DNA of 22,230 nucleotides from a virus (lineage: Duplodnaviria > Heunggongvirae > Uroviricota > Caudoviricetes): the IMG/VR virus record IMGVR_UViG_3300029567_000333, positions 1-22,230 of that record; one strand, 5' to 3'. Each line of letters opens with the position of its first letter. Position 1 is the first letter of the stretch. The notes under the pieces are model-generated. The model ran no database searches. It saw only the letters and a program-made list of their open reading frames with translations, and was not told the origin of the DNA. Of this stretch, positions 1,101 to 13,014 are shown piece by piece. A program made the translations under genes and the position numbers.

Positions 1101-1964
1101 ACGGCCCTCACAATATAATTAAAGGTGATGTTACGTGGACGATTTTCATTTGCTGTTGGAACAACTTTGGAAGCGTCAAAAGTGGCGTAAGCATTCGCCC
1201 CAGTTCCTGCTATTGGGTTTTGTTTATTCGATGACGATGGCCCAAGAGAAAAAACTCCCGAAGCGTAAGTCAGGAGGCCATCGGCATAAACACCAACATT
1301 ACCAGTAATGTTTCGAATAGCATCTCCTTGCGATGAAAGCAGAGTTCGCCCNNNNNNNNNNNNNNNNNNNNCGTTCATCATCCCAGCCACGAATAAACTC
1401 ACCACGTAAATCAGGCAATTTATTTGTCGGGTAAACTTTTGCCAGTTCAGGGTATTCTTCAGCAGAAAAAGCTGCACCATTGCATTTCAGCCAGCCTGTT
1501 GGAGGAGTGGCTGAAGGCCACGGAACAGGCACCCCAACCGGTAATGCAGAGCCTTCCCCCAAACCAAGGTATGAAAGAACATCTTTCCACCCGGCACCAT
1601 TGCTGTTTGGATCAGATAGATTTCCTTCTGTTGTGTTAATAAATATTCTTTCCCCATCGTCCGAGATGAGCATCGCCCCTGACGGATATCCAGAAATCTC
1701 CGAAGCAAATTCAGAATCAAAAGTATTCAGCGCCCCGGTGCTCGACCATCTCCCCAGAGCAGAAAGTTCGTATAAAATTTGGTTCATATCCTGGCCTTTT
1801 GGCGGCAAACCGCCAGCAGATTTCAGGATCATTGTTATTGGAGGAAACCCCTGTTCATACGATGCTGAGTTATCACCTGCAGGGGTGGTTGGCAATATTG
1901 CCCCTCTCTGTCCATTAACTCCAAATGGCTTAGGTTGTTTTTTAGGTGAGTCAGAACGATTCAT
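1097..1964 (-). CDS. tail fibre protein with phage tail-collar domain; reading frame broken by an assembly gap
   Basis: N-terminal part (ORF 1299-1964) contains the tail-collar motif GWLKCNGAAFSAEEYPELAKVYPTNKLPDLRGEFIRGWDD. After the N-run the C-terminal part continues in another frame (ORF 1097-1480, ...GDAIRNITGNVGVYADG...) and ends 2 nt into the tfa start. The apparent frame change is an artefact of the gap. Confidence 0.8.
1352..1371. other. assembly gap (run of 20 N) inside the tail fibre gene
   Basis: Twenty consecutive n characters in the sequence. True length of the missing segment is unknown. Confidence 0.99.
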
Positions 1965-1966
1965 GC

Positions 1967-2605
1967 TTAATTCCTATAAAATGTGCCGTCATTAAATGGA
2001 TATGCATCTGTAGCAAAACCAAAGTATGGGCTTACAATTTGTTTGATATTTACCTGAACTCCACTTGGTACAGGAGTCACATCGTAATTTGTTAAAATCG
2101 ATTCTTCGTAGGGAGCAAGTGAGAACTCAAAATTTATACCAATGGTCATATCTCTGTAATTGACACAATATGCTCTGCCTCGTTGATAAAAAAGTATTTT
2201 AAGAAATTTATTTATATCAGGAATGGTTGCCACACTGATGTTAGCAAAAGCCTTGCAGAGTATTAATGTTCTGTAAGCGTCATCCCCGAGCCTGACATTT
2301 GTTGTTTCCTGCACGCCACCATAAAAAGGAGAATCATTAAATGGTGAAGGATAATCAGTGCCTCCATCGTCAGCCTCACTAAACCCAAATGAGTCACTGT
2401 CAATTGAAGCGACAATGTATCTGCTTATACCTACTATTTTCCCCCACATATCAAGGCCAAAAGATTCACACGTTGTCAAATCCCATACCTTTTTGATGAA
2501 TTCATCTGTGAAGTCATCGAGGCTTACCGCCTGATTAAAAGTGTCAATGATAGATAATAATTTTTTGCTTGCCGAGTATTGGGTAAGAATTGTGTCTTCC
2601 CACAT
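1967..2605 (-). CDS. putative baseplate / tail-fibre attachment protein
   Basis: 212-aa ORF between the baseplate J-like gene and the tail fibre gene, where Mu-like and P2-like tail modules carry a baseplate protein. Call is positional only. Confidence 0.5.
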   Translation of the reverse strand: MWEDTILTQYSASKKLLSIIDTFNQAVSLDDFTDEFIKKVWDLTTCESFGLDMWGKIVGISRYIVASIDSDSFGFSEADDGGTDYPSPFNDSPFYGGVQETTNVRLGDDAYRTLILCKAFANISVATIPDINKFLKILFYQRGRAYCVNYRDMTIGINFEFSLAPYEESILTNYDVTPVPSGVQVNIKQIVSPYFGFATDAYPFNDGTFYRN

Positions 2606-2615
2606 ACCGCTCCCC

Positions 2616-2870
2616 CTACGATAATGTAACAGTGATATCTGATTCCTGAATGGTTGGAACCTGGTCTATGCCCATAGTCACAGCAGGTCCGTATAGTGAA
2701 CCATCTATGGAAACTTCAAGAGACAAAATTCCAACTGTATCAGGAGATATTGAAATAACAGGGGCATAGTATTTACCAGCATTTATCGTCGAACCAATTC
2801 GTGACTTTCCAATACCCTCATACCCTCCATTGAACACAGTGACAATCATTTCCTTGTTTAGTAATATCAC
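2616..2870 (-). CDS. small hypothetical ORF overlapping the 3' end of the J-like gene
   Basis: 84-codon frame that overlaps the upstream gene by 53 nt. No well-spaced Shine-Dalgarno: AAGGAA abuts the internal ATG and the GTG start has none. A CCCCC run sits at the frame junction. Could be a separate small gene or a frameshifted tail of the J-like gene. Confidence 0.3.
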   Translation of the reverse strand: MILLNKEMIVTVFNGGYEGIGKSRIGSTINAGKYYAPVISISPDTVGILSLEVSIDGSLYGPAVTMGIDQVPTIQESDITVTLS

Positions 2871-3840
2871 TTGGGGGATTTAGTGAAGCATCGACATTTA
2901 CCTTAAAGTAAACCCGCGTAGGTGATGCCTTTTGCCATTGCATTACATAAGATGGATATGGCGGCATGTAATTAACGTTATCGTAAACAGTGAACGTTGT
3001 ATTACCATTCATATTGGCGCCGGGGTTATAAGTATTGAATATTGACTCGGCAACATCCGTATCAGCCCCGCCATAAACACAAATATAAACAGAATGCGCA
3101 AGAATCGGGAAATTCGTTGTTCCTTTATTTACTGTTTCTGCAGTTCTGTTTGACCATACGTAAGCATCAAGCACACCATCAGTCGCAAGTAACGCTGCTA
3201 ATGTAGATGCGTCCTGATTTCGACTGTTTCTGGCAACTGATTGTCTCCGGCGAGTTTCAAAGGCGATACGTGATTCAACATCAACACCAACGACTCCAGG
3301 GCTAATATTATTTACAGCATCCCACCCGGAAACGGCTCGATAAATCTGGTTCAGTGAACCGGCGGCACACGGAATCGGCCCGGTTGTTGTGTTGACAAAC
3401 TGCACATCAACAGAGCCTGATGAGGGTATTACAGCATTATCAATTGACTGATATATATACCCGCTCGTATCCACAGCGGTACTCCCTGCTGGTATTGTTG
3501 TTCCAACCTGACCAATGCATGTTGCTGTAACAACTGTCCCCTGAGCAGCGATCCGCTCCATAAAGTAAATCCGACCAATCCCGTCCTGGAATCTGCCAGT
3601 TGAGAAGTCAGGGTTAATTTGATTAAACAAACAAAGAAGTTTGTCGTATTCCTGAGCAATAATTTCAGTGTCAGACTGTGCGATCTGCCCTTGCGGTGAA
3701 CTCAGTGATTGACTAGCACCACCGCCAAGAGCCGTTGACATGTCTGTAAGTCTTCCCGCCAGCACATCCGCTATGTCGGGAACTGAAAGACCGTTTTCAG
3801 TGATGGTTACATCAGGAACAGCCGTATTTAATATCGTCAT
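2818..3840 (-). CDS. baseplate J-like protein
   Basis: 340 aa. Follows a W-like small protein and precedes the fibre genes. Start overlaps the upstream stop (ATGA). Assigned from size and gene order. Confidence 0.55.
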   Translation of the reverse strand: MTILNTAVPDVTITENGLSVPDIADVLAGRLTDMSTALGGGASQSLSSPQGQIAQSDTEIIAQEYDKLLCLFNQINPDFSTGRFQDGIGRIYFMERIAAQGTVVTATCIGQVGTTIPAGSTAVDTSGYIYQSIDNAVIPSSGSVDVQFVNTTTGPIPCAAGSLNQIYRAVSGWDAVNNISPGVVGVDVESRIAFETRRRQSVARNSRNQDASTLAALLATDGVLDAYVWSNRTAETVNKGTTNFPILAHSVYICVYGGADTDVAESIFNTYNPGANMNGNTTFTVYDNVNYMPPYPSYVMQWQKASPTRVYFKVNVDASLNPPSDITKQGNDCHCVQWRV

Positions 3841-7950: not shown

Positions 7951-8967
7951 TTAATACAGATGAACAGAAGGCGGTAATTCTTTATTCTTAAGCCTTATCC
8001 ATGCAGAAAGATTTGTTGGTCCGTCTGGCTCATTGATATCAACATCTCGTGTGTGGTTGATTAAAACGTCTCTCGCCGTTCCGATAACATACGAGAACTC
8101 ATGACCGTAGTCGTAGCATCTGCCGGAATAGTTCGATTGAATTTGTTTTAATGCCGGATACAGTTCGCGGAATAATGCCTGTGAGCGGTTGGCATAATCC
8201 CATAACCATACAAGGCTGTTTGCTTCTTTTGCGGAAAGCTCGTTGGTGCTCTTCTCTTGTTTGCTAATGAACTCACCTTCAAGTGGAACTCGAGCTGCAA
8301 GTGACAGTGCTTCGGTAAACTGCTCCTCACTGATTTCTTTGTACGAACATCCAAAATGGGATTTCAGTGACGACCACATGGTGATCATCGCCTTCGCCTG
8401 TTTTTCTTTTGGCAGAGACTGACCGCGACTCATGACAAGTTGTTTAATGGCTTCCTGCTGTTCAGTGGTGATTTTGCCCGGCAACGCCTTTTTAGCTTTG
8501 CGCGGGTTAACCACATGGCCTTTAGTCCAGTAGTCATGCAGCACAGTAAAGCATTCTTCCTGGTACTGAATCAGTTTATCGCGGATGTCAGCACGAACTT
8601 TCTCAGGGTTGATGCTGAACAGCCATCCATTTAACTTCTTCAAAGGAAGGCAGAGTAGCTTACGAAGCTTCCCATCAGCAGCAACCATATTCATATGAAT
8701 ACAGTTGAACTTATCTAGTTGTTTCATAAGTTTTTGTTGCTGAGTACCCCAGCTCATTCCGAGGTTTTCAACGATTGGCTTCATCGCAACATATGCAACT
8801 CCTGCAGCCATGGCGGTGATAATTTGCTGACCGTTGAAGGGTACGTAAGAGGTGTTCACTGCTTCTAAAATTGCTATACTATTCATATCAGTTTTCTCGT
8901 AGTTAACTGGTAATTTAGAAGCCTCAATGGTTGCAGCCATTGGGGCTTCGCTGTTTTTAGCGACCAT
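7951..8967 (-). CDS. ant: antirepressor (Ant-like)
   Basis: N-terminal region ([37 protein letters not shown]...[16 protein letters not shown]) has the shape of phage antirepressor N-terminal domains. Lies directly 3' of an Arc-like gene and divergent from an Mnt-like gene, as in P22 immI. ATG at 8967 has a GAGGTGG Shine-Dalgarno and overlaps the arc-like stop by 11 nt. A start at 8886 is also possible. Confidence 0.65.
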
Positions 8968-9130
8968 TCGCCACCTCTTCCCTAACACCTTTTGCCAGCA
9001 AACGAACAATTGCAGAGTTCAGAGATATACAGTCCATTTCCGCCAGGCGGCGAAGGTCTTCATTCAGCCGTGATGGAAGGCGAAGGTTGAGTTTGATATT
9101 TTTGCGCTCAGTGAAAAGTGTATCTTGCAT
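8957..9130 (-). CDS. arc: Arc-like ribbon-helix-helix repressor (57 aa, missed by the ORF track)
   Basis: Translation [57 protein letters not shown] has the beta-strand plus two helices layout of the Arc/MetJ family. AAGGAG Shine-Dalgarno 9 nt before the ATG at 9130. Confidence 0.7.
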
Positions 9131-9236
9131 TATCTAATCTCCTTTATTTGGTGCCAAAGTGACGCCATGAAGGCCATAATGCCACCATTGAAATCGTATG
9201 GCAATATGGCACCATGGTTTTTTTGAGAGATTTGCA
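9131..9236. promoter_or_regulatory. divergent promoter/operator region between the arc-ant and mnt-like genes
   Basis: Minus strand: TTGCCA (9204-9199), 17-nt spacer, CATTAT (9181-9176). Plus strand: CATAAT at 9175-9180, so the two -10 hexamers overlap. Dense GCCAT/ATGGC and GGTGCCA/TGGCACC inverted motifs are candidate operator half-sites. Confidence 0.45.
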
Positions 9237-9557
9237 ATGGCCGAAAAACAAGTAAAAGACTACGACAAGTTCAACCTCCGTTTTCCTGACGGAATGCGAG
9301 ATGCTATAGCTGAACGAGCTAAACGTAACGGCAGATCAATGAACTCAGAGATTGTGCAGATACTGGAAGATGCCTTGAATGCAGAAAATACTCTTGGGGA
9401 AATAGCAGACAAAATCAACAGCGTCTCGGTTCCGCTAAATGTTGATGCGCTAGTTCAACTTCAAGCCCAGGTTATCGCCATGCAAAAAGAAATACAGGAA
9501 AAGTTCAGAGAGCAAAACGAAAAGTTAAGAGAACTGCTAAACAAAAAACCCACCTGA
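9237..9557 (+). CDS. mnt: Mnt-like ribbon-helix-helix repressor
   Basis: FNLRFPDGMRDAIAERAKRNGRSMNSEIVQILEDAL closely matches the Mnt/Arc DNA-binding region as I recall it (FNFRMP...EANGRSMNSELLQIVQDAL in P22 Mnt). C-terminal half is heptad-like and coiled-coil-prone. Start taken at the ATG at 9237 (GAGAGA Shine-Dalgarno); the longer N-terminus from 9198 has none. Confidence 0.85.
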   Translation: MAEKQVKDYDKFNLRFPDGMRDAIAERAKRNGRSMNSEIVQILEDALNAENTLGEIADKINSVSVPLNVDALVQLQAQVIAMQKEIQEKFREQNEKLRELLNKKPT

Positions 9558-9570
9558 CGGTGGGTTTTTC
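9543..9570. terminator. bidirectional rho-independent terminator between convergent genes
   Basis: A-run (9543-9548), CCCACC-tgac-GGTGGG stem-loop, then TTTTT (9565-9569). The mnt-like stop TGA lies in the loop, and the convergent minus-strand gene ends at 9571. Confidence 0.75.
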
Positions 9571-10563
9571 TTATTCTTTATCTTTTAAGTCGATGGTTCT
9601 TTGTCCAATAACCTTTTCATCTATGTATTTCTCATACTCTTCTCGAGTATCAGAAACCATTGCAATACCAGTAACCTTACCTATTTGGGTTCTAAGAGCT
9701 TTAACTCCAACCTCTGATAAAAACTGGTGTATTTTATCGTTTTTGCTGCCTTTCTCTTCTTTTGACGTTTTTGCTAAATTAAATACCTTTCCTTCACTTC
9801 TGGCTAATGGGTAGTAAATGTGATCTATCGTAAGATATTTAAACGCCCACGGTCGCCCTCTAACTGGTTTGTCTATACCATACAGACGATACCAATGCTC
9901 ATAAAGTTCAGGGGTGAACTCTCTTTCATACTCACGAGCCTCTTCAGCAACATATCGCTTATATGCTTGAATTACTTCTTCTTTTGTTCTGTCATACCCT
10001 GCCAAAGCATAAACAAGCCCCTGAATTCCCGCCTTGGCTGATGCATCAATAATTATCCTGGCTTGCTTAGCAATCCCTTCCTGACTAGAAAGCAACTTAC
10101 CTTCAGCTTTAGCGTTAGAGATTGCTCGACATAAATCAATTAAGATTGTTACATCGTAGCCATGTATTACAGGGTTAGCTGGTGTGTTCGTGCCCACCTG
10201 TTTGTATTGAAAAATAAGAGGATTTTCAAGTTTTGCCCTTAATTCATGCCCGATATACTGAGAAATAGTTTTCCCCTGAATAAACTTTGGCAACCTGCTG
10301 CCACCTTCGCCAAGACCAATCGCTTCTCCCATGCCTCTCTGGCTAATAACGGCAGTTTTGTTATCATCATTTAACACATAGCACTCAACATCAATCCCGA
10401 ATTCATGCTGGAACGATCCCTTATGCGTAGCAATTAATGGTTTATCCTTCCATCTTGCAGCCGCTGCTTTCTTTGCTATTTCAGAACGCTGCTCTTTAGT
10501 CAGCGACTTTGCGCGAGCGATTCCGCCCTTAGCTTTCCCTTCACCACTTTTCTTTTCAGTCAT
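9571..10563 (-). CDS. hypothetical protein, possibly P63C-domain-like; function unknown
   Basis: 330 aa from the ATG at 10563, which has an AAGGTG Shine-Dalgarno 8 nt upstream. Basic N-terminus (KKSGEGKAKGGIARAKSLTKEQRSEIAKKAAAARWK). The gene is visibly more AT-rich than the structural genes. The P63C resemblance is from memory and unverified. Confidence 0.45.
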   Translation of the reverse strand: MTEKKSGEGKAKGGIARAKSLTKEQRSEIAKKAAAARWKDKPLIATHKGSFQHEFGIDVECYVLNDDNKTAVISQRGMGEAIGLGEGGSRLPKFIQGKTISQYIGHELRAKLENPLIFQYKQVGTNTPANPVIHGYDVTILIDLCRAISNAKAEGKLLSSQEGIAKQARIIIDASAKAGIQGLVYALAGYDRTKEEVIQAYKRYVAEEAREYEREFTPELYEHWYRLYGIDKPVRGRPWAFKYLTIDHIYYPLARSEGKVFNLAKTSKEEKGSKNDKIHQFLSEVGVKALRTQIGKVTGIAMVSDTREEYEKYIDEKVIGQRTIDLKDKE

Positions 10564-10564
10564 A

Positions 10565-10654
10565 ATGCAAGCACCTTTGCTGTGATATATGCTTGCATTA
10601 TATGCACTGTACCCACATACAAGCAAGCATAAAACAAAAGCAAAATGCTTGCAT
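10565..10654. promoter_or_regulatory. array of four 10-bp near-palindromes ATGC(W)(W)GCAT with a putative promoter
   Basis: ATGCAAGCAc at 10565-10574, ATGCTTGCAT at 10589-10598, aaGCAAGCAT at 10621-10630, ATGCTTGCAT at 10645-10654, giving two units of inverted half-sites 24 bp apart. On the minus strand a perfect TATAAT (10602-10597) with a weak TTGCTT -35 lies among them, and the repeats overlap the -35, the transcription start and the Shine-Dalgarno. Confidence 0.55.
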
Positions 10655-10771
10655 TGCAACCGCACTACTCCAACTACACAGTATCATCTGGTATCCTGCG
10701 TAAAACCGAGTGTTGCGTGCTTTTGCTTAAGTTAACGGATACAAACATAGGAAACGTTACAAGGGGAAAGA

Positions 10772-11230
10772 ATGAAATCCAGATTTTTCACAATAGCAAT
10801 ATTTTCTTCCGTTCTTCTATCACTCGCAGCTTATGCTGCATCCGACAAAGATAAGGAAAAAATGATGTCTTTAATAAAAGATGCTTCTCCTTATGTTGCA
10901 GGCATGGGCAAAAGCATTGATGAAGTTTGTCAGGATATGGCTAACGACATGGTAAAAAAGTATGGAAATCAACTTAGTGCTATTGGCAAGTCACCGTCAG
11001 ATATACGAGATTCATCGTATGGTATATGCTTTGACGCTGCATCTTCAGCATCATTATCGCAATCCATAGAAGAAGTAAGCATGTGGAAAAATGCAGCAAT
11101 GCAAAACATTAACGCCACATTCCGAGGCGAGAATGAGCAATCTCCCGCGCGAAAATTTCTCGTTGAGACAATTGATCACTCTGAGAAAATGGCAAAAACA
11201 ATTGCATTCATGCGGGAAATTAGTCAATAG
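10772..11230 (+). CDS. small secreted (periplasmic) protein of unknown function
   Basis: N-terminal signal peptide (MKSR, hydrophobic core FFTIAIFSSVLLSLAA, AYA-AS cleavage motif) with no lipobox cysteine. Two Cys in the mature part. AAGGGGA Shine-Dalgarno. AT-rich. Converges on the tape measure gene with an 8-nt gap. Confidence 0.65.
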   Translation: MKSRFFTIAIFSSVLLSLAAYAASDKDKEKMMSLIKDASPYVAGMGKSIDEVCQDMANDMVKKYGNQLSAIGKSPSDIRDSSYGICFDAASSASLSQSIEEVSMWKNAAMQNINATFRGENEQSPARKFLVETIDHSEKMAKTIAFMREISQ

Positions 11231-11238
11231 CAAATCTG

Positions 11239-13014
11239 CTAAGGCACTGCACTTGAAAATGCCTGATTTACTGATGATCTGCGATTCAACTCCTTAAATC
11301 CTTCGGTTAGTTTTGAGGATTGATCCGTTTTGGCAATTACCTTTACCTCTCCTATGTGCTGGCTGTTGTAATTGTTAACAACGCTTTGGGTATAGGATTG
11401 ATTTGCAGATCCATTAGCCAATCTTTGCTGAGTTTGGTAGTAAGCGGCATTGCTATTTTTCGTTGGGTTACCATAATCAAGACCCCGCTTCCAATCTGGA
11501 TAACCTTCATGCCTAGCCATATAGGCGCTAAGTTTTGCCATAACCTCTGGATCTGAGAGGTTTAGCTTATCATTGGCACCAACGCCCATAGACTTAGAAA
11601 CCTGGTCAATATACGCCTTTGTGTTGTTTTCTGAGGATGGTGCCCACTTGCTTATTATTCCTTGCAACGTATCAAGCTTATCTCTTTTGTAGTATAGAGT
11701 CAGTTGATTCCTGGCGGCCTCCCAACCCTCTTCTGGGTCGAAGTATTGAGCAAATCCGTCTTTGTCTCTTCTTCTGTTTCCAGTAGCTTTAAGATTTAAT
11801 GGGTTATTGTTTCTGTCAGGCCTGTTGACACCATTTTTGTTAGGAGGAATCTCTTTATTTGGATCGTCATAATCCAGCCCAATGAGCCTTTCAAGCCAAT
11901 GCTGCTGAAATGCGAATGGCCGCATCTCATCAGGAACATCTTTATACTGGTCTTGTACCATCTGCCCAAAAATACCAACAGCACCGATTAATCCCAGCTT
12001 GCTTCCTAACCCCTTGCCGCTAAGAAGAGCCATGGCAGCAAGAATGCCCAATGCGTTTCCAGCGCCACCAACGGCTTTAACAAAACCATCAATACCTGTA
12101 CTCAGGTTCCTGAAGAACCCAACAATGTCACCCTTGTTGTTTTTCAGCCACTCTAAAAACTCCTGTTCAGCTTTAAGCACTTCAGGGCCAAATGTAGCCA
12201 TTAATTCTTGTTTAACCTGAGCAAATTGCGAGTCAAGGGCTTTAGTCGTAGCAAGAATGTTGCGCTGTGCTTCTTCCTGCTCTTTGGTCATCTGCCATCG
12301 TTTTTCTTCCTCAGATACCATCTGCACAGCTTTTCCGCTTTTAATATCCCCGGCAAGATTAGGGTCATAACCAAAAGCAGAAAGCACTTGCATTAACTGT
12401 TTCTCGTTATGGTTCTTCCCATATTTCTGAAATTCCGCCAGAGCATCTTCTGATTTACCTCCAAGCTTACTAATATCAATGCCTGTTCTCGCTCCAGTTG
12501 TTAGTAAATTCTGAGCCTCCGGTGTAAGTCCGCCGAAAATTGTTGGGTCTTCTATATTGGCAAGCGCCATCCTGGCGCTCATCTGTGCCCCAAGGAACGC
12601 GCCGCCGTTCTGACCAATTCGGGAGAATCCATACTGAGTACCAAGAACGTTACTGGCGCTTGTTCCAAGCATTCTCCCCATATTACTGGCTCTTACAATT
12701 GACTCCGAAGTACTTTCAAATGCACGATGAATGCCAATGGCTACGGCAGTCAACACACCGCCAACAGCCACAAAGCGTGTCGAAAGCCCCAAAAAACCAT
12801 TAAATGAAGCAGTCAACCCTTTCATTGCAACAGCAGCTTTGTCGGTCTCCTTAGCCGTTTTGGACATCGAGGAGGTTGTTGACCTTTCTATCGCAGATGA
12901 AGATCTCTCTATTTCGTTTTTAAGGTCTTGTGCTTCCTGCTTTACTTTCCGTTTTCCATTCAGGAATTCATCGGCCTTAATTGTGACCTTGTAGGCCAAC
13001 TCATTGATAATCAT
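11239..13014 (-). CDS. tail tape measure protein
   Basis: 591 aa, directly downstream of the chaperone pair. Gly/Ala-rich hydrophobic segments (AVGGVLTAVAIGI, GGAGNALGILAAMALLSGKGLGSKLGLIGAVGIFG) and a charged coiled-coil-like stretch. C-terminal region (NNNPLNLKATG...YFDPEEGWEAARNQL...) looks like a separate globular domain of unknown identity. Confidence 0.7.
   Translation of the reverse strand: MIINELAYKVTIKADEFLNGKRKVKQEAQDLKNEIERSSSAIERSTTSSMSKTAKETDKAAVAMKGLTASFNGFLGLSTRFVAVGGVLTAVAIGIHRAFESTSESIVRASNMGRMLGTSASNVLGTQYGFSRIGQNGGAFLGAQMSARMALANIEDPTIFGGLTPEAQNLLTTGARTGIDISKLGGKSEDALAEFQKYGKNHNEKQLMQVLSAFGYDPNLAGDIKSGKAVQMVSEEEKRWQMTKEQEEAQRNILATTKALDSQFAQVKQELMATFGPEVLKAEQEFLEWLKNNKGDIVGFFRNLSTGIDGFVKAVGGAGNALGILAAMALLSGKGLGSKLGLIGAVGIFGQMVQDQYKDVPDEMRPFAFQQHWLERLIGLDYDDPNKEIPPNKNGVNRPDRNNNPLNLKATGNRRRDKDGFAQYFDPEEGWEAARNQLTLYYKRDKLDTLQGIISKWAPSSENNTKAYIDQVSKSMGVGANDKLNLSDPEVMAKLSAYMARHEGYPDWKRGLDYGNPTKNSNAAYYQTQQRLANGSANQSYTQSVVNNYNSQHIGEVKVIAKTDQSSKLTEGFKELNRRSSVNQAFSSAVP

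What the first reader, a model, noticed from the sequence alone, without database searches (positions are those of the whole stretch)
10565..10654. Four-copy operator-like array ATGC(W)(W)GCAT overlapping a promoter with a perfect TATAAT
Two exact copies of ATGCTTGCAT (10589-10598, 10645-10654) and two near-copies of its reverse complement (10565-10574, 10621-10630) are spaced 24, 32 and 24 bp apart. They sit in the divergent region between the 330-aa unknown gene and the secreted-protein gene, and overlap the -35, the transcription start and the Shine-Dalgarno of the minus-strand gene. This is the signature of a promoter controlled by a dimeric repressor binding several sites. The repressor is not identifiable from this window.
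Basis: seen in the sequence. Interest (0 to 1): 0.6.

Follow-up and report, generated by a model that had tools for sequence, protein, structure and literature searches.

The report
Conserved four-site operator of P63C gene
Four copies of a 10-base motif cover the promoter and start codon of a prophage gene of unknown function, and the same layout recurs upstream of this gene family in phages of many bacterial phyla, which suggests the gene represses itself through a short N-terminal segment.

Summary
Four ATGCWWGCAT-type sites lie at 10565-10574, 10589-10598, 10621-10630 and 10645-10654, spaced 24/32/24 bp. About 4e-6 such clusters are expected per 22 kb.

On the minus strand they lie in fixed register with a sigma-70 promoter. 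S3 contains the -35 (TTGCTT). S2 begins with the last two bases of a perfect TATAAT. S1 lies between the Shine-Dalgarno and the ATG of the 330-aa P63C-domain gene.

The array belongs to the gene family, not to this prophage. An exact-pattern scan of viral contigs and a protein-based fetch of 80 genomes across phyla found the same sites, orientation (AA/TT/AA/TT) and spacing, with unrelated spacers. The 8-bp core is about 117-fold enriched upstream of the gene. No neighbouring gene is universal.

The sites track the protein's N-terminal KGGxARA..L(S/T)xExR..IAxKAAxARW motif. Relatives lacking the motif lack the sites. RhuM-domain proteins carrying it have them. A class with an altered N-terminus has a different repeat.

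Best explanation (about 0.6, inferred, no binding data): negative autoregulation by the gene's own product.

The idea of an unidentifiable external repressor and a wider regulon does not.

The parts
10565..10574 (-). Site S1. Minus strand reads GTGCTTGCAT. It lies between the Shine-Dalgarno and the start codon.
   Evidence: In relatives this site ends 0-2 nt before the ATG or overlaps it (TGCTTGC[ATG]).
10589..10598 (-). Site S2. Minus strand reads ATGCAAGCAT. Its first two bases are the last two of the -10 hexamer, and it covers the predicted transcription start (about 10590, inferred).
   Evidence: TAnnnT sits in this exact register in 25 of 34 unbiased four-site loci.
10621..10630 (-). Site S3. 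Minus strand reads ATGCTTGCTT. It contains the -35 hexamer.
   Evidence: The best -35 candidate (TTGCAT/TTGCAA in 29 loci) starts at S3+4 in 30 of 34 loci, and the spacer is 17-18 bp in 29 of 34.
10645..10654 (-). Site S4. Minus strand reads ATGCAAGCAT. It is the distal site, around -55.
10597..10602 (-). -10 hexamer TATAAT.
   Evidence: Read. Family-wide 'TA' signal at positions -4 and -3 of S2.
10621..10626 (-). -35 hexamer TTGCTT, with an 18-bp spacer to the -10.
   Evidence: It matches 3 of 6, so the consensus scan did not call it.
10574..10578 (-). Shine-Dalgarno AAAGG.
   Evidence: An SD-like GGA/GGAG lies just 5' of S1 in 30 of 34 loci.
9571..10563 (-). Regulated gene: 330-aa P63C-domain protein (PF10546; PHROG 2384, unknown function). 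The real start is the ATG at 10563. The longer ORF from the GTG at 10665 reads through the array and is an artefact.
10450..10536 (-). Coding region for residues 10-38, KAKGGIARAKSLTKEQRSEIAKKAAAARW. This is the N-terminal motif that co-occurs with the array and is the candidate DNA-binding element (inferred).
   Evidence: (two helices, 10-20 and 23-38).
9544..9569 (.). Two-way terminator-like hairpin between the converging P63C and mnt-like genes. It marks the 3' edge of the portable module.
   Evidence: Module 9543-10706 is found at 97% identity in E. coli P22-like prophages.

Best explanation
The array is the operator set of a self-contained, negatively autoregulated gene cassette. A sigma-70 promoter on the minus strand drives the 330-aa P63C-domain gene. 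Its -35 is TTGCTT inside S3. Its -10 is TATAAT, ending in the first two bases of S2. The start site is predicted inside S2.

The gene's own product, probably through its basic N-terminal segment (residues about 10-38), binds the four TGCWWGCA-core sites. These are arranged as two inverted pairs, S4/S3 and S2/S1. Occupancy of S3 and S2 would block RNA polymerase at the -35 and at the -10/+1. S4 and S1 would add cooperative binding and a block just before the start codon. The protein would thus hold its own level low and steady in the lysogen.

Shown here:
- the sites exist and are non-random;
- their sequence, orientation and spacing, and their register with the -10, -35, SD and ATG, are conserved across phyla;
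- they are exclusive to the upstream region of this gene family;
- they co-occur with the N-terminal motif.

Inferred:
- the protein binds these sites;
- binding represses;
- the position of the transcription start.
For: 1. Phylogenetic footprint. Salmonella phage ST104 orf23 is only 33% identical as protein. It sits next to cI, not next to mnt. It still keeps all four sites with 25/32/24 spacing, while the spacers have diverged.

2. DNA-only scan. The pattern ATGCAAGCA-N12-20-TGCTTGCAT in viral contigs gave at least 119 loci. Nearly all place the pair 0-2 nt from, or overlapping, the start codon of a 320-360-aa protein with the KGGxARA...ARW N-terminus. The distal pair was not part of the search pattern, yet it is present in the AA/TT orientation in most of them.

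3. Protein-only fetch of 80 genome loci from many phyla. Of 79 evaluable loci, 57 have at least 2 exact 8-bp cores upstream, and at least 34 have the full AA/TT/AA/TT array. Spacing is 22-25 / 30-33 / 22-25.

4. Information content is confined to the 10 bp of each site, plus the -10 'TA' and the SD 'GG'. Promoter geometry is conserved.

5. Core density is 7.3 per kb upstream against 0.063 per kb elsewhere, over 108 non-redundant groups. The ST104 genome has no other cluster.

6. No neighbouring gene is universal. The best neighbour cluster is present in 31 of 108 groups, and Arc/Mnt-type neighbours in 5 of 108.

7. Link to the N-terminal motif. Five family proteins lacking it have no sites. 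RhuM-domain proteins carrying it have the sites (3 distinct loci), while 28 RhuM relatives without it have none.

8. Co-variation. An Acidobacteriota-type class with an extended N-terminus and linker carries a different conserved repeat, TACTTGC-N4-GCAAGTA type, around its own promoter.
Against: There is no binding or expression data of any kind.

The N-terminal segment matches no known DNA-binding family, neither in Pfam nor among solved structures. NCBIfam gives nothing either.

The N-terminal codons and the operators are physically contiguous. Their co-occurrence could therefore partly reflect co-transfer as one recombination block.

Subclasses with clearly different N-terminal residues (ARA->VVA, EIA->ERA) keep the same sites. 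The specificity-determining residues are therefore unclear.

The -35 is weak (3 of 6), and the promoter was not called by the consensus scan.
Confidence: 0.6

Rival explanations
1. The sites are operators for a repressor encoded elsewhere: the prophage's main repressor, the adjacent Mnt/Arc-type proteins, or a host factor. This is what the first reader assumed.
For: In the window and in E. coli P22-like prophages the gene lies next to an immI set of mnt, arc and ant. In ST104 it lies directly downstream of cI. Nothing here demonstrates binding by the gene's own product.
Against: Arc/Mnt-type neighbours occur in only 5 of 108 family groups, and no neighbour is universal. The mnt-arc intergenic region of the window has no such site. 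The same 10-mer is kept from Enterobacteria to Acidobacteriota and Myxococcota, and phage repressors and most host factors differ across that range. By eye the motif does not fit LexA, CRP, sigma-54 or DnaA consensus sequences recalled from memory. No other cluster was found in the ST104 genome or in about 750 kb of flanks.
Confidence: 0.15
2. The inverted repeats act as nucleic-acid structures rather than protein sites. Hairpins S4/S3 and S2/S1 in read-through RNA would hide the start codon or terminate or insulate transcription. Alternatively they form DNA cruciforms.
For: The stretch from just upstream of S2 into the first codons (10605->10540) folds as RNA into a 14-bp stem at -16.5 kcal/mol, z = -2.0, with the SD in the loop. 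The whole array is a long imperfect palindrome. Rfam gives only sub-threshold miRNA-like hairpin matches.
Against: Of 55 column pairs that deviate from consensus, only 9 are Watson-Crick compensated. Deviations concentrate at positions 1 and 10 of every site, as expected for separate protein sites and not for a stem. The conserved -10 places the start site inside S2, so the cassette's own mRNA lacks the 5' arm. S4/S3 lie upstream of the promoter. No T-run follows the stems. Variant classes rearrange the heptamers in ways that keep a repeated word, not a common fold.
Confidence: 0.06
3. The gene's product does bind the array, but mainly for another purpose and not for simple autorepression. Examples are activation, a nucleation or centromere-like site, or a sensor platform.
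For: There are four sites over about 90 bp with dyad symmetry. The function of P63C and RhuM proteins is unknown. The gene sits in accessory ('moron') slots of prophages: next to cI, in immI, and between tail genes.
Against: S3 and S2 coincide with the -35 and the -10/+1 in fixed register across phyla. That is the geometry of repression. There is one array per gene and none elsewhere.
Confidence: 0.12
4. The cluster is a chance or low-complexity feature.
For: Single sites with one mismatch occur at background frequency in the window.
Against: The cluster expectation is about 4e-6 per window. The array is conserved in hundreds of diverged loci.
Confidence: 0.01

Closest known systems
Phage P22 immI operators (Omnt and Oarc, bound by the ribbon-helix-helix tetramers Mnt and Arc)
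   Same: Short symmetric operators overlap the -35/-10 of a prophage accessory promoter. A P22-type immI set of ant, arc and mnt lies only 1 kb away in this window.
   Different: It occurs mostly without any Arc-family gene nearby (5 of 108 groups). The candidate binder shows no ribbon-helix-helix match.
Lambda/P22-type multipartite operators (OR1-3 and OL1-3, bound cooperatively by CI dimers, with autoregulation at PRM)
   Same: Several spaced copies of a pseudo-palindromic site overlap the promoter elements. Cooperative multi-site binding and autoregulation are the likely logic.
   Different: The sites here are 10 bp with an 8-bp core, against 17 bp in lambda (from memory). They form two inverted pairs with 23-24-bp and 31-32-bp spacing. 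One site lies at the start codon. The regulator would be a 330-aa protein with a roughly 30-aa N-terminal motif, not an HTH plus peptidase repressor. In ST104 the array lies beside a CI gene but after its terminator.
Heptad-repeat operators of plasmid autoregulators such as omega of pSM19035, and ParG/CopG-type repressors
   Same: A short asymmetric word (here TGCTTGC) is repeated in direct or inverted arrangements over a promoter. The arrangement varies between relatives while the word is kept. The function there is autoregulation.
   Different: Those proteins are small ribbon-helix-helix dimers binding contiguous heptads (from memory). Here the words are 13-22 bp apart. The candidate binder is the N-terminus of a large multidomain protein, and no RHH signature was detected.
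Type II antitoxin or single-protein Abi-type autoregulation (an N-terminal DNA-binding module fused to, or paired with, an effector)
   Same: A portable N-terminal module plus its own operator-promoter is attached to different C-terminal domains: P63C, and wHTH+RhuM. It is located in prophage accessory slots.
   Different: No toxin, antitoxin or defence model matches (PADLOC none). It is a single gene with no partner.

Membership tests
Sigma-70 promoter with overlapping operators | -10 and -35 hexamers with a 16-19-bp spacer, in fixed register with the repeated sites | tested here: met
   Window: TTGCTT-18-TATAAT. Family: TAnnnT at S2-4..S2+1 in 25 of 34 loci. The best -35 candidate (TTGCAT/TTGCAA in 29 loci) starts at S3+4 in 30 of 34, and the spacer is 17-18 bp in 29 of 34.
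Sigma-70 promoter with overlapping operators | Experimentally mapped transcription start and repression on site occupancy | not testable with these tools
   No transcript or binding data are available. Literature searches found nothing.
Negative autoregulation by the adjacent gene product | The cis sites are always linked to the gene, and no other gene is always present | tested here: met
   Core is about 117-fold enriched upstream of the family gene. The top neighbour cluster is present in 31 of 108 groups.
Negative autoregulation by the adjacent gene product | Presence of the sites tracks presence of the putative DNA-binding part of the protein | tested here: met
   All 57 of 79 loci with at least 2 cores carry the canonical N-terminal motif. 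The 5 proteins without the motif have 0 cores. Among RhuM relatives, 3 distinct loci with the motif have cores and 28 without it have none. A variant N-terminus goes with a variant repeat.
Negative autoregulation by the adjacent gene product | Direct binding of the protein to the sites | not testable with these tools
   Needs EMSA, footprinting or ChIP.
P22 immI Mnt/Arc operator | Lies in the arc-mnt divergent region and co-occurs with an Arc-family gene | tested here: not met
   The array is upstream of the P63C gene, not between arc (8957-9130) and mnt (9198-9557). No site lies in that region. An Arc-family neighbour is present in 5 of 108 groups.
Ribbon-helix-helix DNA-binding domain (for the N-terminal motif) | Match to RHH profiles, or a beta-alpha-alpha fold | tested here: not met
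   No Pfam RHH hit for the protein or for 18 N-terminal segments. AF2 gives helix 10-20 and helix 23-38. No PDB sequence relative. A monomer model cannot exclude a strand formed only in a dimer.
P63C domain family (PF10546), for the regulated gene | Score above the Pfam gathering threshold | tested here: met
   35.8 bits against a cut-off of 26.1, residues 202-289. 2766 homologues, all listed ones PF10546.
Known RNA family (Rfam) | Covariance-model match at the gathering score | tested here: not met
   Only miRNA-precursor models at 18-23 bits, against thresholds of 70-119.
Structured hairpin or intrinsic terminator | Compensatory changes between the arms, and a T-run after the stem | tested here: not met
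   9 of 55 deviating column pairs are compensated. The terminator scan found none in 10560-10660.
Known anti-phage defence systems (PADLOC) | Profile match of the gene product | tested here: not met
   No PADLOC family for the window protein, ST104 orf23 or the secreted neighbour.

The most novel reading that the evidence does not exclude
The roughly 30-residue KGGxARA..L(S/T)xExR..IAxKAAxARW segment is a previously unrecognised portable DNA-binding module. Together with its four-site promoter it forms a self-repressing 'expression cassette'. Phages have carried this cassette across bacterial phyla and fused it to different effector domains (P63C, wHTH+RhuM). The recognised unit is the asymmetric heptamer TGCTTGC, and operator geometry changes with the length of the protein's linker. 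P63C and RhuM proteins would then be tightly dosed prophage effectors, possibly sensors or exclusion factors, and their regulation becomes directly testable.
Probability: 0.4. Interest if true: 0.75.

Novelty: new variant of a known kind. Interest (0 to 1): 0.6.

Why it matters
P63C (PHROG 2384) and RhuM proteins are widespread in prophages and genomic islands, and none of the libraries or papers searched here assigns them a function or a regulator. This work gives three things to build on:
- a 10-bp operator word conserved from Enterobacteria to Acidobacteriota, with fixed geometry on the promoter;
- a short N-terminal motif that travels with it;
- a concrete, cheap experiment: EMSA and reporter assays with one protein and one 100-bp fragment.

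It also corrects gene starts. Many database entries, including ST104 orf23, begin inside the operator. Finally, the array is a DNA signature that finds these cassettes without any protein search.

Tried and rejected
- The consensus promoter scan did not call the promoter, because the -35 matches only 3 of 6. I kept the promoter on comparative grounds.
- Mnt/Arc as the repressor: rejected. It is a neighbour in 5 of 108 groups, and there are no sites in the arc-mnt region.
- A wider regulon: rejected for the phage and its flanks.
- LexA, CRP, sigma-54 and DnaA consensus sequences were compared by eye, from memory. None fits.
- Rfam gives only sub-threshold hairpin-like hits.
- The hairpin model lacks compensatory change.
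- The Pfam 'CSLinker' hit to one N-terminal segment is a chance match to an algal pyrenoid linker motif.
- The search for related loci with the N-terminal alignment failed because no stretch was conserved enough.
- Literature searches for P63C, the motif strings, and KilA-N/Bro-N/Mx8 found nothing relevant.
- About 20 of the DNA-pattern loci have no family gene. Some are contig-end truncations, and the rest are unrelated palindromes in AT-rich or Firmicute phages.

Full report
OBSERVATION

- S1 10565-10574 ATGCAAGCAC
- S2 10589-10598 ATGCTTGCAT
- S3 10621-10630 AAGCAAGCAT
- S4 10645-10654 ATGCTTGCAT

Start-to-start spacing is 24/32/24 bp. The exact pattern occurs only at these two places in 22 kb, against 0.27 expected. 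With one mismatch there are seven sites, four of them in these 90 bp. Simulated windows never gave clusters above two sites, and a four-site cluster is expected about 4e-6 times per window. The array as a whole is a 33-nt imperfect inverted repeat.

ANATOMY ON THE MINUS STRAND

The sequence reads: S4' ATGCAAGCAT - N14 - S3' ATGCTTGCTT - N22 - S2' ATGCAAGCAT - N14 - S1' GTGCTTGCAT - T - ATG.
- A perfect TATAAT lies at 10602->10597. Its last two bases are the first two of S2'.
- TTGCTT inside S3' is the -35, with an 18-bp spacer.
- AAAGG just 5' of S1' is the SD.
- The ATG at 10563 starts a 330-aa protein.

The consensus scan missed the promoter because the -35 matches only 3 of 6. The longer ORF listed from the GTG at 10665 reads through the array and is an artefact.

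THE GENE AND ITS SURROUNDINGS

The protein carries a P63C domain (PF10546) and belongs to PHROG 2384, function unknown. It has no NCBIfam or PADLOC match.

Downstream, across a two-way terminator (9544-9569), lies a complete P22-type immI set:
- an mnt-like Arc-family gene (9198-9557, +)
- arc (8957-9130, -)
- ant (7951-9009, -)

Upstream and divergent is a 152-aa protein with a signal-peptide-like N-terminus (10772-11230) that has no family match. Tail genes flank both sides.

The block 9543-10706, which holds the gene plus the array, occurs at about 97% identity in E. coli P22-like prophages. There it lies between the DNA-transfer genes and mnt, and the divergent neighbours differ.

FIRST COMPARATIVE CLUE

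Salmonella phage ST104 carries a relative (orf23) that is only 33% identical as protein. It sits directly downstream of cI, in the position rexAB holds in lambda (from memory), after the cI terminator. All four sites are there with the same orientation and 25/32/24 spacing, while the spacers have diverged. The annotated start of orf23 is actually the ATG inside S2. The real start aligns with the window's ATG.

DNA-ONLY TEST

I scanned IMG/VR for ATGCAAGCA-N12-20-TGCTTGCAT, which is one pair only.

In nearly all of them the pair ends 0-2 nt before, or overlaps by two bases (TGCTTGC[ATG]), the start codon of a 320-360-aa protein. Its N-terminus reads KGGxARAxxL(S/T)xExRxxIAxKAAxARW.

The upstream regions are otherwise unalignable and range from 36 to 61% G+C. 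Most still carry the distal pair, which was not searched for, in the same AA/TT orientation.

The roughly 20 loci without a family gene are either contig ends or unrelated palindromes.

PROTEIN-ONLY TEST

I fetched 80 loci from one-genome-per-species contigs using only conserved peptides from the body of the protein. They came from:
- alpha-, beta-, gamma- and delta-proteobacteria
- Acidobacteriota
- Myxococcota
- a few MAGs labelled Firmicutes, Chloroflexi or Abditibacteria

Of 79 evaluable loci, 57 have at least two exact 8-bp cores TGC(AA|TT)GCA in the upstream zone. At least 34 have the full AA/TT/AA/TT array with one mismatch or less. Spacing is 22-25 / 30-33 (rarely 22-24) / 22-25.

Information content falls exactly on the 10 bp of each site. 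The only flank signals are 'TA' at -4 and -3 of S2 (the -10) and 'GG' before S1 (the SD). In the 34 four-site loci:
- TAnnnT sits at S2-4..S2+1 in 25.
- The best -35 candidate starts at S3+4 in 30, and it is TTGCAT or TTGCAA in 29.
- The spacer is 17-18 bp in 29.
- The ATG overlaps the last two bases of S1 in 25.

In a shorter variant the S3-S2 distance is 22-24 bp. There a TTGACA abuts S3, and the 17-bp geometry is kept.

EXCLUSIVITY

Over 108 non-redundant groups the core occurs 7.3 times per kb in the upstream zones and 0.063 per kb in about 750 kb of flanks. The few 'elsewhere' pairs turned out to be arrays that my ORF-start guess had mis-zoned, or a second family gene.

The complete ST104 genome has four cores: three in the array and one isolated. 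There is no sign of a regulon.

WHO BINDS?

No neighbouring gene is universal. The most frequent neighbour is an IS1-like protein divergent upstream, in 31 of 108 groups. A 269-aa convergent gene is in 27 of 108. Arc/Mnt-type genes are in 5 of 108. In the window and in ST104 there is no room for a hidden small gene next to the array.

The one constant is the regulated gene, and within it the N-terminal motif:
- Five family proteins that lack the motif (L187, L192, L198, L199, L201) have no sites.
- The motif also occurs on proteins with a different body, a winged-helix plus RhuM domain (PF13310). Three distinct such loci have the sites in the same position relative to the ATG. Twenty-eight RhuM relatives without the motif have none.
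- About ten Acidobacteriota-type proteins have an extra N-terminal helix-like stretch and a longer linker (ARW-xKAGKxPxPxAT). They lack the canonical sites. Instead they share a different conserved repeat, TATACTTGCYCGRGCA ... TGCYCGRGCAAGTATA, around a TTGACT promoter.
- L166 has the long linker only, and it has TGCTTGC-N3-GCAAGCA palindromes.

The repeated word is therefore the heptamer TGCTTGC, and its arrangement changes with the protein's architecture. This pattern is what autoregulation through the N-terminal region predicts. It remains an inference.

RIVALS

A hairpin reading is possible in principle. The stretch from just upstream of S2 into the first codons folds as RNA at -16.5 kcal/mol, z = -2.0. 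Four things argue against it:
- Only 9 of 55 deviating column pairs are compensated.
- Deviations pile up at positions 1 and 10 of every site.
- The conserved -10 puts the start site inside S2.
- The distal pair lies upstream of the promoter.

Rfam has nothing.

An external repressor or a host factor is hard to reconcile with the phylogenetic breadth and the lack of other sites, but it is not excluded. I give it 0.15.

LIMITS

The N-terminal segment has no recognised DNA-binding signature. The AF2 model (pLDDT 71) shows helices at 10-20 and 23-38, a beta-rich domain at 43-137 and a helical C-terminal part. It has no convincing structural relative.

Subclasses with altered motif residues keep the same sites.

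Because motif and operators are contiguous, co-transfer contributes to their association.

No paper in the library mentions the motif or a function for P63C proteins.

VERDICT

The operator-on-promoter interpretation is strongly supported by comparative evidence. The regulator is most likely the product of the adjacent gene itself (about 0.6). The array is a family-wide, phylum-spanning signature of a self-contained cassette, not a feature of this prophage's immunity circuitry. It is a new variant of a familiar kind of control element, attached to a protein family of unknown function. Interest is 0.6.

Noticed in passing
window 1352-1371: A run of 20 N (masked or gap) inside the minus-strand gene cluster.
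   Followed up: no
window 7951-9557: A complete P22-type immI set sits between tail and baseplate genes of a myovirus-like prophage. It comprises ant with P22_AR_N/C domains, arc, and a 119-aa mnt-like Arc-family gene, with promoter-like sites in the 9130-9200 divergent region. The same layout occurs in E. coli WS4437A-1.
   Followed up: partly
window 10663-10706: This block is shared at about 86% identity with phages that have no P63C gene (EC.P3, E212, several E. coli prophages). There it lies just upstream of a small rightward gene. It probably belongs to the promoter or 5' end of the neighbouring accessory-gene slot, not to the array.
   Followed up: partly
L152 1873-2829 and about 30 other family groups: The divergent upstream neighbour is a 319-aa protein with weak IS1 InsA zinc-ribbon and IS1 DDE matches. 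The P63C cassette may often travel beside, or be regulated together with, a transposase-like gene.
   Followed up: partly
L178 3962-4768 and about 26 other family groups: A convergent 269-aa protein with no Pfam match ends in ...KLTAEERSVIAKKAAKARW. This is the same motif as the P63C N-terminus, but at a C-terminus.
   Followed up: no
L004 3516-3552 (ST104 orf23); window 10564-10665: Annotated or longest-ORF starts of family genes run through the operator, so the sites get translated as 'CKH' or 'ACM'. Many database entries for this family are probably 12-35 residues too long.
   Followed up: partly
L005 (E. coli 2017.18.04CC) 2288-3087: An IS1 insertion has removed the P63C gene and left only S3-S4 of the array. 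This is a decayed remnant of the cassette.
   Followed up: no
L033, L011, L058 (viral contigs): Some cassettes sit directly beside a tRNA 3' end (a prophage attachment site) and keep only one site pair. This looks like a deletion between the repeated ATGCAAGCAT copies.
   Followed up: no
window 11239-13014: The 591-aa minus-strand protein next to the secreted-protein gene matches PHROGs annotated as endolysin, lytic tail protein and tape measure. It has no Pfam hit.
   Followed up: no
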